A stretch of DNA of 64,000 nt from a phage: NCBI GenBank assembly GCA_015370545.1, contig GCA_015370545.1_3932.1. The stretch is one strand, 5' to 3'. Of the stretch, positions 40,143 through 40,596 are shown one piece after another; position 1 is the stretch's first letter, and every line of letters starts with the position of its first letter. The position numbers and the translations under genes are program-made. The notes beneath the pieces were generated by a model that made no database searches, was not told the DNA's origin, and worked only from the letters and a program-made list of their open reading frames with translations.

Positions 40143-40596
40143 AATTATAATAAGTATTTCAAAATGATGTTTGAGAGGGCTATTTAGCCCCTCCCTTAAA
40201 GAGTTCTTACGAGTATTCTTTAAAGGAGCAGAAGACCAAATACAGCAAGAATGTATGAAATTTCAAGCCAATTTAATTTTGAAAATTTAAAACTTGGTCT
40301 GGCTCAACAAATTTACAGAAGACCGTTTACAGCAAACTTTAAACAATCTATTTCTCCGGTAAAGAAAAGGCGAAGGTTCGATTCCTTCACTCGGCAGATG
40401 TCGAGTTGGTGTAATGGTAGCACTTAAGATGATAAACAACGGTCTGGTAATTATCTTTGTAGATAAGTTATTAAGCTTACCTGTGAGTATGCGACCACAA
40501 AGGGTGAAAGGGTAAATTCTAGATTTAAACCCAAAAAGGCACATCGCTACAGACCTTAAGCAAGTCTGGGTAGCTTATCTACAAAGATAATTTAAT

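What the first reader, a model, noticed from the sequence alone, without database searches (positions are those of the whole stretch)
40143..40596. tRNA-like fragment and inverted-repeat structure inside the tRNA array
A canonical T-arm (GAAGGTTCGATTCCTTC, about 40372-40390) is followed by a 7-nt strand ACTCGGC that pairs with the downstream GTCGAGT across a 4-nt loop, but I could not find the matching 5' acceptor/D/anticodon part of a tRNA. Downstream there is a D-loop-like GTGTAATGGTAGCAC and a 16-bp inverted repeat (TTATCTTTGTAGATAA at 40454-40469, TTATCTACAAAGATAA at 40575-40590) enclosing about 105 nt. This could be a degenerate tRNA, a permuted or intron-containing tRNA, or a Y-RNA-like tRNA mimic.
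Basis: seen in the sequence. Interest (0 to 1): 0.65.

Follow-up and report, generated by a model that had tools for sequence, protein, structure and literature searches.

The report
Phage Y RNA with tRNA-like core
The apparent broken tRNA is the tRNA-shaped core of a small non-coding RNA of the Y-RNA (YrlA) type, one of four sister RNAs lying just downstream of a Ro60-like protein gene that sequence-based annotation does not identify as Ro60, which suggests that FelixO1-type phages and many others carry their own Ro/Y-RNA particle.

Summary
A canonical T arm (40372-40388), a 7-bp acceptor-like hairpin closed by AGAT (40389-40406) and a D arm (40409-40423) lie in circularly permuted order. ARAGORN and Rfam at gathering score call nothing there.

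The trio is not a broken tRNA. It sits in the loop of a conserved outer stem: helix 2, an AGA/G internal loop, helix 1, then a UUACAGCAA box (unit D, 40313-40450). Three shorter paralogs share that stem and box (39578-39656, 39745-39814, 40226-40305), and both helices covary between copies.

In 78 other phage loci encoding this protein plus the window, a covariance model found 75 matches. All were on the gene's strand and 46 lay within 400 nt of it. Rfam YrlA matches relatives at 25-41 bits, below its gathering score.

The inverted repeat (40449-40592) is a separate conserved structured RNA.

Verdict: a new variant of the Ro60/Y-RNA system. Protein-RNA binding is inferred, not shown.

The parts
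37831..39246 (+). Gene for a 471-aa Ro60-fold protein (Pfam DUF2828 + DUF7788; PHROG 850 'RNA-binding protein'). It is the proposed protein partner of the RNAs below.
39265..39385 (+). Two sigma-70-like promoter matches (39265-39293 and 39356-39385) between the Ro60-like gene and the first tRNA. They are candidate start points for an array transcript.
   Evidence: Consensus scan only. The number found does not exceed that in shuffles, so this is weak evidence.
39578..39656 (+). Short Y-like unit A: TGAC - AGA - AGACCAA - box TTACAGCAA - loop - TTGGTCT - G - GTCA.
   Evidence: Pattern search, 3 matches against 0 in 100 shuffles. Regex with pairing check. The MFE fold gives the same stem. Coordinates.
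39745..39814 (+). Short Y-like unit B: TTAC - AGA - AGACCGT - box TTACAGCAA - loop - ACGGTCT - G - GTAA.
   Evidence: The helix 2 change TTAC/GTAA to TTGC/GCAA in L001 and L002 is compensatory.
40226..40305 (+). Short Y-like unit C: GAGC - AGA - AGACCAA - box ATACAGCAA - loop - TTGGTCT - G - GCTC. It lies inside the finding's coordinates.
   Evidence: L002 has GGGC/GTCC in helix 2.
40313..40450 (+).
   Evidence: An unconstrained MFE fold gives the outer stem plus four hairpins. Model R1 scores 58.7 bits, E 5e-11. The same architecture is parsed in 13 units from 10 loci.
40351..40367 (+). V (anticodon-arm-like) hairpin TTTCT-CCGGTAA-AGAAA of unit D.
   Evidence: Rfam tRNA alignment and fold. 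The loop is not conserved among relatives.
40372..40388 (+). T arm GAAGG-TTCGATT-CCTTC of unit D.
   Evidence: GGTTC and the other T-loop positions are invariant in 13 units.
40389..40406 (+). Closed acceptor-like stem (AS): ACTCGGC - AGAT - GTCGAGT.
   Evidence: Compensatory variants are ACACGT/GCGTGT (Sf13, pEC-M719) and ACCCTTC/GAAGGGT (Moogle). All 7 pairs covary across 13 units.
40407..40423 (+). U8-G9 plus D arm GTGT-AATGGTA-GCAC of unit D.
40449..40592 (+). Unit E: a long hairpin closed by the 22-nt inverted repeat. Its interior is branched and includes the hairpin CAGAC-CUUAAGCAA-GUCUG (40550-40568). It ends 4 nt before tRNA-Lys.
   Evidence: Inverted repeat. Fold z = -6.3. 9 of 26 stem pairs show changes on both sides over 5 phages. 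The inner hairpin loop is invariant in the window, L002 and L003 while its stem covaries. In L003 the element is closed by a Y-type stem with a UCAGCA box.

Best explanation
Region 40143-40596 holds three structured non-coding RNAs, not a tRNA gene.

**What they are.** The 'tRNA fragment' is the tRNA-like module of a YrlA-type Y RNA (unit D). Its parts are a V hairpin, a T arm, a closed acceptor stem and a D arm. The module sits in the loop of a terminal stem that three shorter paralogs (units A-C) share: helix 2, an AGA/G internal loop, helix 1 beginning AG and ending CU-G, and a single-stranded UUACAGCAA box.

**Proposed mechanism (inferred, not shown).**
1. The RNAs are transcribed with the tRNA array and cut out by the host tRNA-processing nucleases.
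2. The shared stem and box are the binding site for the phage's Ro60-fold protein (gene 37831-39246).
3. The variable loop is the effector end. In unit D, the tRNA mimic recruits or decoys a tRNA-recognising factor. In bacterial Ro60/Y-RNA particles the Y RNA tethers Ro60 to PNPase.
4. The net effect would be phage-controlled surveillance, turnover or protection of structured RNA, most plausibly tRNA, during infection.

Unit E (the inverted repeat) is a further conserved RNA. It displays a box-like CUUAAGCAA loop and may be another ligand.

**Shown here:** the structures, their conservation and covariation, the predicted Ro60 fold of the neighbouring protein, and the genomic linkage.
**Inferred:** expression, processing, binding and function.
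For: **Architecture**
- The unconstrained fold of 40311-40456 gives the outer stem plus V, T, AS and D hairpins.
- 8 of 9 full-length relatives fold the same way.
- The order of parts matches the published YrlA description: a 5' protein-binding motif, then V, T, AS and D stem-loops (PMC4201824).

**Paralogs**
- Four units share the stem, with compensatory changes in both helices.

**Cross-phage conservation**
- 13 units from 10 loci parse identically. 99% of cells are paired and 20 of 23 pairs change on both sides, against 39-44% paired when the partners are slid.
- Helix 1 and the box were not required by the scanner that found the units.
- The Levitt 15:48 tertiary pair covaries: U:A in 6 units, C:G in 5, other in 2. 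Only 6 of 500 shuffles reach this.

**Independent model**
- Rfam YrlA (RF02553) matches relatives at 40.9, 39.2, 38.9, 28.7, 25.8 and 24.7 bits.

**Protein**

**Linkage**
- R1 gives 75 hits in 677 kb searched on both strands. All are on the gene's strand and none is inside the gene.
- 46 lie within 400 nt of the gene, against 12% expected. 39 of 79 loci have such a hit.
- R2 gives 37 hits, again all on the + strand.
- 22 of 26 loci with stem-box units beside the gene have no tRNA within about 3.5 kb.
Against: - No expression, processing or binding data exist for any of these RNAs.
- The canonical Ro60-binding motif (GNCGAAN0-1G, or CGAA) is absent. The phage stem has ACAGAAG and a different box.
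- Rfam YrlA does not match the window copy even at E<=10, and no relative reaches its gathering score of 69.
- The protein has no sequence-level TROVE match, so its Ro60 identity rests on a predicted structure.
- The T, AS and D pairings in the seed were selected for by my scanner, and helix 1 was picked by eye. Part of the covariation statistic is therefore circular.
- R1 was built from trimmed seeds and mis-places helix 1 in the window copy.
- L002, a fairly close relative, lacks unit D, so the tRNA-like module is dispensable.
- The window copy has A15/C48, not a Levitt pair.
- Only about half of the loci gave a hit with these models.
Confidence: 0.72

Rival explanations
1. The RNAs are structured spacers of the tRNA operon and work without the Ro60-like protein. 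They could be processing signals (guides for RNase P, RNase E or RNase Z), promoter or attenuator elements, or stabilising hairpins.
For: Units A and B start 4-5 nt after an upstream tRNA's CCA and end 8-10 nt before the next tRNA. The 5' strand of helix 2 overlaps TTGACA/TTTACA hexamers, and one promoter-like match was called at 39744. M. smegmatis YrlA is an RNase P substrate (PMC4201824).
Against: In 22 of 26 other loci the same stem-box units lie beside the Ro60-like gene with no tRNA within about 3.5 kb. They are always on the gene's strand and cluster at its ends. Helix 2 covaries as RNA pairs (TGAC/GTCA, TTAC/GTAA, GAGC/GCTC, TTGC/GCAA, GGGC/GTCC). That would destroy a -35 hexamer.
Confidence: 0.12
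2. The region holds decayed tRNA remnants: the 3' three-quarters of one tRNA pseudogene followed by the 5' quarter of a tandem copy. They have no function.
For: tRNA arrays do carry pseudogenes, and several records annotate 'tRNA-Pseudo' nearby. Rfam tRNA scores 24.7 bits on 40332-40396. The window copy lacks CCA and has non-canonical C33 and A15/C48.
Against: The closed acceptor is maintained by compensatory changes in close relatives. It covaries at all 7 pairs across distant phages. The same permuted order recurs in unrelated sequence contexts, enclosed by the same outer stem and box. A remnant would not be expected to keep a partner strand from a different gene.
Confidence: 0.05
3. It is a circularly permuted or split gene for a functional decoding tRNA, such as Thr-GGU or the missing Trp. 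The tRNA would mature by cleavage in the AS loop and joining or pairing of the halves.
For: All four arms are present in permuted order. Several relatives encode NCCA right after the acceptor 3' strand: ACCAACUAU in L003 and L078, GCCAAUU in L051, CCCAAU in L078 and GCCAAACA in Moogle. One GenBank record calls a 131-nt tRNA-Thr(GGT) here. ARAGORN finds no tRNA-Trp.
Against: The anticodon-like loop varies freely among close relatives and is absent in Moogle and several distant units. The window copy has C33. The break lies at the 26/27 junction and is bridged by a long stem that paralogs without any tRNA part also have. A separate candidate tRNA-Trp(CCA) exists at about 41462-41541.
Confidence: 0.05
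4. It is a protein-coding gene on the minus strand: the 85-aa ORF at 40287-40544, annotated as a hypothetical protein in wV8, AYO145A and other records.
For: An ATG-initiated ORF of 85 aa exists and several records annotate it.
Against: Relatives differ by gaps of 4 and 5 nt inside the ORF. Substitutions follow RNA pairing. The ORF runs antisense to a dense, same-strand tRNA array. It spans two separately folding RNA elements.
Confidence: 0.02

Closest known systems
YrlA Y RNAs (Rfam RF02553) of Salmonella Typhimurium, Mycobacterium smegmatis and some phages (mycobacteriophages, CcrColossus, Bacillus phage G), partners of Ro60/Rsr (Chen et al. 2014, PMC4201824)
   Same: A terminal stem carries the protein-binding site. 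The loop holds V, T, closed acceptor-like (AS) and D stem-loops in that order. The T loop and D loop are tRNA-like, and the 15:48 pair covaries. The RNA is encoded next to a Ro60-fold gene on the same strand, and one locus often holds several Y RNAs, some without the tRNA module (like YrlB).
   Different: The binding-site motif differs: AG-stem/CUG plus a UUACAGCAA box instead of GNCGAAN0-1G. The protein is DUF2828/DUF7788 and not recognisable as TROVE by sequence. Scores against RF02553 are 25-41 bits in relatives (gathering score 69) and nothing for the window copy. The units are embedded in a 26-tRNA array.
Thermus phage phiLo Ro60 with Yrl1/Yrl2 (PMC12135203)
   Different: The phiLo protein is a sequence-recognisable TROVE protein. 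Its Yrls were picked by a CGAA motif and lie upstream of the gene. The text I read describes no tRNA-like module for them.
Dictyostelium Class I RNAs (Rfam RF01414; Kjellin et al. 2021, PMC7919456)
   Same: About 60 nt long. [quoted passage not shown] The 11-nt motif CCUUACAGCAA lies directly after the 5' strand, CUG(U) follows the 3' strand, and the loop is variable. Phage short units read AGR-stem, UUACAGCAA, loop, stem-CUG. The Rfam model scores 26-27 bits on two L004 units.
   Different: Class I RNAs are eukaryotic and were reported as unique to Dictyostelia. Their known direct binder is the RRM protein Rnp1A. The phage scores are below the gathering score (41.5). Whether Dictyostelium has a DUF2828 protein could not be tested here. 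The resemblance may be convergent or chance.
Circularly permuted tRNA genes (Cyanidioschyzon merolae and other algae) and two-piece (permuted) tmRNA genes. Both comparisons are from my own knowledge.
   Same: The 3' part (T arm and acceptor 3' strand) is encoded upstream of the 5' part (acceptor 5' strand and D arm), joined by a short linker.
   Different: Those genes yield a functional tRNA or tmRNA with a conserved anticodon or an alanine identity G3:U70. Here the anticodon-like loop is not conserved, there is no G3:U70, and the break is bridged by a protein-binding stem.

Membership tests
YrlA (RF02553) Y RNA | T-like and D-like stem-loops with an intervening acceptor-like stem-loop (AS), optionally a V stem-loop upstream, all enclosed by a stem formed by the 5' and 3' ends | tested here: met
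   Fold of 40311-40456, parse of 13 units, folds of relatives.
YrlA (RF02553) Y RNA | Encoded adjacent to, and on the same strand as, a Ro60 ortholog | tested here: inconclusive
   A gene for a Ro60-fold protein ends 331 nt before unit A and 1066 nt before unit D, on the same strand. It is a DUF2828/DUF7788 protein with no TROVE sequence match, so orthology is not established.
YrlA (RF02553) Y RNA | Conserved 5' motif GNCGAAN0-1G (the proposed Rsr/Ro60 contact) | tested here: not met
   The 5' strand reads (U/G)ACAGAAGACC. There is no CGAA, and a different conserved box, UUACAGCAA, follows helix 1.
YrlA (RF02553) Y RNA | Score at or above Rfam's gathering threshold (69 bits) | tested here: not met
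   The window copy is not reported at E<=10. Relatives score 24.7-40.9 bits.
YrlA (RF02553) Y RNA | Compensatory G15:C48 / A15:U48 (Levitt pair) | tested here: met
   11 of 13 units pair (6 U:A, 5 C:G). The window copy itself is A15/C48, while its relative pEC-M719 has U48.
YrlA (RF02553) Y RNA | Bound by Ro60; carries tRNA-type modifications; substrate of RNase P and the CCA-adding enzyme | not testable with these tools
   These are experimental properties (PMC4201824).
Ro60 / TROVE protein | Ring of HEAT-like repeats followed by a vWA domain with a MIDAS motif | tested here: met
   Predicted structure with pLDDT 89.7. Full-length matches to Ro60 structures. D-x-S-x-S, T and D are invariant. 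This rests on a model, not an experimental structure.
Ro60 / TROVE protein | Match to Pfam TROVE (PF05731), or sequence similarity to solved Ro60 proteins | tested here: not met
   No TROVE hit at E<=10. phmmer and a profile search against PDB sequences found no Ro60.
Functional (decoding) tRNA | Contiguous cloverleaf recognised by tRNA finders; U33 and a conserved anticodon; a 3' CCA like the other tRNAs of this array | tested here: not met
   ARAGORN finds none. Rfam tRNA scores 24.7, below 29, with a mispaired acceptor. The window copy has C33, a variable loop and no CCA.
Circularly permuted tRNA gene | 3' half upstream of the 5' half, AND a conserved anticodon arm giving a mature decoding tRNA | tested here: not met
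   The order of parts is met. Conservation of the anticodon arm is not.
Dictyostelium Class I RNA (RF01414) | Short terminal stem starting with G, 11-nt CCUUACAGCAA motif after the 5' strand, CUGU 3' end, about 60 nt; score at or above 41.5 bits | tested here: inconclusive
   The stem, the box (UUACAGCAA, 9 of 11 positions), the CUG and the length all match. Rfam scores are 26.8 and 26.3 bits in L004 and 14.7 in the window, below the gathering score. The paper's own candidate cut-off was 25 bits (PMC7919456).

The most novel reading that the evidence does not exclude
DUF2828/DUF7788 proteins are a second, sequence-divergent branch of Ro60 with their own RNA recognition code: a stem beginning AG and ending CUG, plus a single-stranded UUACAGCAA box. 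The same code defines the Class I RNAs of Dictyostelium. Those abundant developmental RNAs would then be Y RNAs of a DUF2828-type Ro protein, and the phage and amoeba systems would be homologous. In addition, the NCCA-containing closed acceptors would be cut by RNase P to give a two-piece, CCA-ended tRNA mimic.
Probability: 0.15. Interest if true: 0.9.

Novelty: new variant of a known kind. Interest (0 to 1): 0.72.

Why it matters
Ro60/Y-RNA particles are known from animals, some bacteria and a few phages whose Ro60 can be recognised by sequence. This work suggests three extensions.

- **A much larger phage family.** More than 2,500 DUF2828 proteins passed E<=0.001 in one search, including the classic Salmonella typing phage Felix O1 group and large Vibrio phages. 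This family carries a Ro60-fold protein with cognate small RNAs that use a different binding motif. It gives a function to test for a widespread domain of unknown function.
- **Annotation.** It explains gene-free gaps and dubious annotations in phage tRNA arrays, such as the 131-nt tRNA-Thr and the antisense 85-aa ORF.
- **Biology.** It places an RNA-surveillance particle beside phage tRNA arrays. From my own knowledge, those arrays are currently discussed as counter-measures to host tRNA-targeting defences.

Felix O1-type phages grow on E. coli and Salmonella, so the idea is directly testable. The similarity of the stem-box units to Dictyostelium Class I RNAs, if it reflects homology, would give those RNAs a candidate protein partner.

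Tried and rejected
- **MAFFT on full-length units (A2).** It misaligned the D arm and the 3' stem because spacer lengths vary. I replaced it with a hand-parsed, trimmed seed (A3).
- **Model R1.** It was built from that trimmed seed. It scores the T/AS/D core well but forces helix 1 onto the wrong bases in the window copy. Helix 1 evidence therefore comes from the parse, the pattern searches and the MFE folds, not from R1 alignments.
- **Model R2 (short units, trimmed loops).** It works on units with short loops (37 hits). It fails on the window's own units, which have 40-50-nt loops.
- **Sequence searches of the protein against PDB.** Neither a single-sequence nor a profile search found Ro60. 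Only fold comparison did.
- **The afdb50 fold library** was unavailable, so I could not look for a Dictyostelium or plant DUF2828 structure.
- **Literature.**
  - No paper in the library links DUF2828 or Felix O1-type phages to Ro60 or Y RNAs.
  - The 2020 Ro60 review and the id I tried for the 2016 RNA-repair genomics paper were not held, and Avesson et al. 2011 did not appear in the searches.
  - Prior description elsewhere therefore cannot be excluded.
  - One search was uninformative.
- **tmRNA-like reading, considered and rejected.** There is no G3:U70, no tag reading frame and no ARAGORN tmRNA call.

Full report
**1. Context**

The window comes from a FelixO1-type phage (Ounavirinae). 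The queried 454 nt match 252 phage records, most at 95-99% identity. The region lies inside an array of 26 tRNA genes at 39412-44688, all on the + strand. ARAGORN and Rfam at gathering score call nothing between tRNA-Asp (ends 40142) and tRNA-Lys (starts 40597).

**2. The observation**

| Element | Coordinates |
|---|---|
| T arm | 40372-40388 |
| ACTCGGC / AGAT / GTCGAGT | 40389-40406 |
| D arm GTGT-AATGGTA-GCAC | 40409-40423 |
| Inverted repeat, left arm | 40451-40466 (3 nt off the stated position) |
| Inverted repeat, right arm | 40575-40590 |

The repeat extends to 22 nt (40449-40470 / 40571-40592). With that hairpin, Rfam's tRNA model scores 40332-40396 at 24.7 bits, below the threshold of 29, with a mispaired acceptor. 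The true partner of the acceptor 3' strand lies downstream, so the order of parts is circularly permuted.

**3. What encloses it**

Four paralogous units share a terminal stem: A 39578-39656, B 39745-39814, C 40226-40305 and D 40313-40450. Each unit reads, in order:

- a 4-bp helix 2;
- an internal loop, AGA on the 5' side and G on the 3' side;
- a 7-bp helix 1, AGACCNN/NNGGUCU;
- the box (U/A)UACAGCAA directly after helix 1.

Both helices covary between copies. Helix 2 reads TGAC/GTCA, TTAC/GTAA or GAGC/GCTC. The inner pairs of helix 1 read AA/TT or GT/AC. The pattern CAGAAGACC-N30-60-GGTCTGG occurs 3 times, against 0 in 100 shuffles.

Unconstrained folding returns this stem for all four units. 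For unit D it also returns four hairpins in the loop: V, T, closed acceptor (AS) and D. This matches the architecture published for YrlA Y RNAs: a 5' protein-binding motif followed by V, T, AS and D stem-loops (PMC4201824).

**4. The neighbouring protein**

The ORF at 37831-39246 ends 165 nt before the first tRNA and matches Pfam DUF2828 and DUF7788. PHROGs calls it an 'RNA-binding protein'. It shows no sequence similarity to TROVE or to solved Ro60 proteins.

An AlphaFold2 model built on 40 homologs is confident (pLDDT 89.7, pTM 0.89).

- **Foldseek:** the ten best PDB matches are all Ro60 structures aligned over their full length (E 4e-8 to 2e-6).
- **Sequence:** the vWA MIDAS residues (D-x-S-x-S, T, D) are invariant in the family alignment.

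I conclude the protein has a Ro60 fold. This rests on a predicted model.

**5. Relatives elsewhere**

*Loci from exact-protein look-ups*

Three loci whose proteins are 63%, 56% and 51% identical to the window's all have gene-free stretches downstream of the gene.

- **L002** has units A-C with compensatory helix 2 changes (TTGC/GCAA, GGGC/GTCC) and unit E, but no unit D.
- **L003** has short units, a 140-nt unit D homolog and a second, shorter unit with a tRNA-like core.
- **L004** has two short units and three units with complete tRNA-like modules.

*A strict scan and a hand parse*

I fetched 80 IMG/VR loci that encode the protein, 75 of them at 38-47% identity. A strict scanner for T arm, closed stem and D arm found modules in several more of them. 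I parsed 13 units from 10 loci by hand. All have the same segment order, a 7-bp helix 1 (fully paired in 12 of 13) and the box U-U-N-C-[AC]-G-C-A-A.

On the trimmed seed alignment:

| Measure | Result |
|---|---|
| Cells paired | 99% (39-44% when the partners are slid) |
| Pairs with changes on both sides | 20 of 23 |
| Helix 1 and AS pairs that covary | all 7 in each |

The T, AS and D pairings were selected for by the scanner, and helix 1 was chosen by eye, so part of this statistic is circular. Three results were not selected for:

- the box;
- the 15:48 Levitt covariation (6 U:A, 5 C:G, 2 other; 6 of 500 shuffles reach it);
- unconstrained MFE folds, which recover the outer stem plus T, AS and D in 8 of 9 units.

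Close relatives within Ounavirinae keep the AS stem through compensatory changes: ACTCGGC/GTCGAGT, ACACGT/GCGTGT and ACCCTTC/GAAGGGT. The V loop drifts: CCGGUAA, CUCAAAA, CUGGUAA, and no equivalent hairpin in Moogle.

**6. Linkage statistics**

- Model R1, searched over the window plus 78 loci (677 kb, both strands), gave 75 matches at E<=1. All are on the strand of the Ro60-like gene and none is inside the gene.
- 46 matches lie within 400 nt of the gene's ends, where 12% of the flanking sequence lies. 39 of 79 loci have such a match.
- A few hits are tandem tRNAs (for example window 42174-42275).
- The weak hits are short stem-box units, often directly downstream of the gene or in its 5' leader.
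- A model of the short units (R2) gave 37 hits, again all on the + strand. Helix 1 covaries at 6 of 7 pairs in 31 units.
- 22 of 26 loci with such units have no tRNA gene within about 3.5 kb. The units therefore follow the protein gene, not tRNAs.
- Rfam's curated YrlA model matches six of the tRNA-module units in relatives at 24.7-40.9 bits (best E 1.5e-7). None reaches the gathering score of 69, and the window copy is not matched.

**7. The inverted repeat (unit E, 40449-40592)**

This is a separate RNA. It folds at -48.3 kcal/mol (z = -6.3). Over five phages, 9 of 26 closing-stem pairs keep pairing through changes on both sides.

An inner hairpin is conserved while its stem covaries: CAGAC/GUCUG in the window, CAGUC/GACUG in L002, GUUC/GAAC in L003 and AACC/GGUU in the Mooglevirus copies. 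Its loop, CUU(A/U)AGCAA followed by G, is conserved. That loop resembles the UUACAGCAA box. In L003 the whole element is closed by a Y-type stem with a UCAGCA box. I infer, weakly, that unit E belongs to the same system.

**8. Mechanism (inferred)**

By analogy with Ro60/Y-RNA particles, the shared stem and box would bind the Ro60-fold protein and the variable loop would be the effector end. In Deinococcus and Salmonella the Y RNA tethers Ro60 to PNPase. The phage phiLo protein binds two adjacent Y-like RNAs and host PNPase (PMC4201824, PMC12135203).

In unit D, the tRNA mimic would engage a tRNA-recognising factor. Several relatives encode NCCA immediately after the acceptor 3' strand inside the AS loop. 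This fits the reported RNase P cleavage and CCA addition of M. smegmatis YrlA. It also suggests the loop may be opened to give a CCA-ended, two-piece mimic.

Short units in the gene's 5' leader suggest possible autoregulation. None of this has been shown.

**9. Rivals**

- **Processing or spacer element independent of the protein (0.12).** The tRNA-free loci and the RNA-type covariation of helix 2 argue against it.
- **Decayed tRNA remnants (0.05).** Covariation and recurrence argue against it.
- **Functional permuted tRNA (0.05).** The unconserved anticodon-like loop, C33, the lack of CCA in the window copy and the shared outer stem argue against it.
- **Minus-strand 85-aa ORF annotated in some records (0.02).** Gaps of 4 and 5 nt among relatives argue against it.

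**10. Comparison and novelty**

The element works like a YrlA/Ro60 system, but it fails two defining tests of the YrlA family: the GNCGAA motif and the Rfam threshold. Its protein also fails sequence-level TROVE membership. I therefore class it as a new variant of a known kind.

Phage Y RNAs are already known for phages with recognisable Ro60: mycobacteriophages, CcrColossus, Bacillus phage G and phiLo. I found no paper linking DUF2828 or Felix O1-type phages to Ro60 or Y RNAs. Some relevant papers are not in the library.

**11. A side lead**

The short units match the definition of Dictyostelium Class I RNAs. The shared features are a length of about 60 nt, a terminal stem starting with G, the CCUUACAGCAA motif after the 5' strand and CUGU after the 3' strand (PMC7919456). 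Rfam's model of that family scores 26-27 bits on two L004 units. I could not test whether dictyostelids have a DUF2828 protein.

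Noticed in passing
window 41462-41541 (+): Candidate non-canonical tRNA-Trp(CCA), which would supply the only amino acid missing from the 26-tRNA array. Its parts are acceptor GTGGGAC/GTCCCAT with G73 and CCA, anticodon arm ACGGC-CUCCAAA-ACCGU (C31/A39 mismatch), T arm with TTCAACT, and an odd D arm (3 bp, 14-nt loop). ARAGORN and Rfam tRNA miss it. Rfam tRNA-Sec scores 23 bits, E 0.017.
   Followed up: partly
L004 5534-5592 and 5619-5670; window units A-C: Short stem-box units resemble Dictyostelium Class I RNAs (RF01414) in the terminal stem, the UUACAGCAA box, the CUG 3' end and a length of about 60 nt. 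Scores are 26-27 bits against a gathering score of 41.5. Class I RNAs were reported as unique to Dictyostelia.
   Followed up: partly
L082 3403-3441, L059 3404-3445, L052 3403-3447, L080 3384-3444, L037 3400-3439, L012 3451-3488 and others: In many phages a short stem-box unit lies in the 5' leader of the Ro60-like gene, directly before its ribosome-binding site. This suggests the protein may regulate its own mRNA.
   Followed up: no
AS loops: L003 7028-7036, L078 5367-5375, L051 5087-5093, L078 8051-8056; the Moogle copy in L086 (about 782-789): Several closed acceptor loops begin with NCCA (ACCAACUAU twice, GCCAAUU, CCCAAU, GCCAAACA), like a tRNA 3' end encoded inside the loop. The window copy (AGAU) has none.
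   Followed up: no
window 40676-40745; L002 6500-6565: The spacer between tRNA-Lys and tRNA-Met (CACCCTTAACTGAGAAACACCTGCGCGGCTGGAAACACCCACTCAACAGTTTCTCTA...) is almost identical in a phage whose Ro60-like protein is only 63% identical. It can form a GAGAAAC/GTTTCTC stem. It may be another conserved RNA element.
   Followed up: no
window 40199-40223 and 43579-43603; also 40173-40195: A small hairpin with the loop UCUUACGAG occurs twice in the array (repeat D18, 76% identical). A G+C-rich hairpin, GAGAGGGCTATTTAGCCCCTCCC, precedes unit C and has a counterpart in L002 (GGAAGGACTTTTTAGTCCCTCC).
   Followed up: no
GenBank records OQ174506 (REP7), KR014248 (AYO145A), EU877232 (wV8): Likely mis-annotations over this region: a 131-nt 'tRNA-Thr GGT' spanning units C and D, and an 85-aa hypothetical protein on the opposite strand spanning units D and E.
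   Followed up: partly
window 42770-43327 and 43716-44513: Two protein-coding genes (DUF7338, 185 aa; DUF7217, 265 aa) lie inside the tRNA array on the same strand.
   Followed up: no
L002 6192-6275 then 6276-6419: This fairly close relative keeps units A-C and E but lacks the tRNA-like unit D altogether, so the tRNA mimic can be gained or lost as a module.
   Followed up: partly
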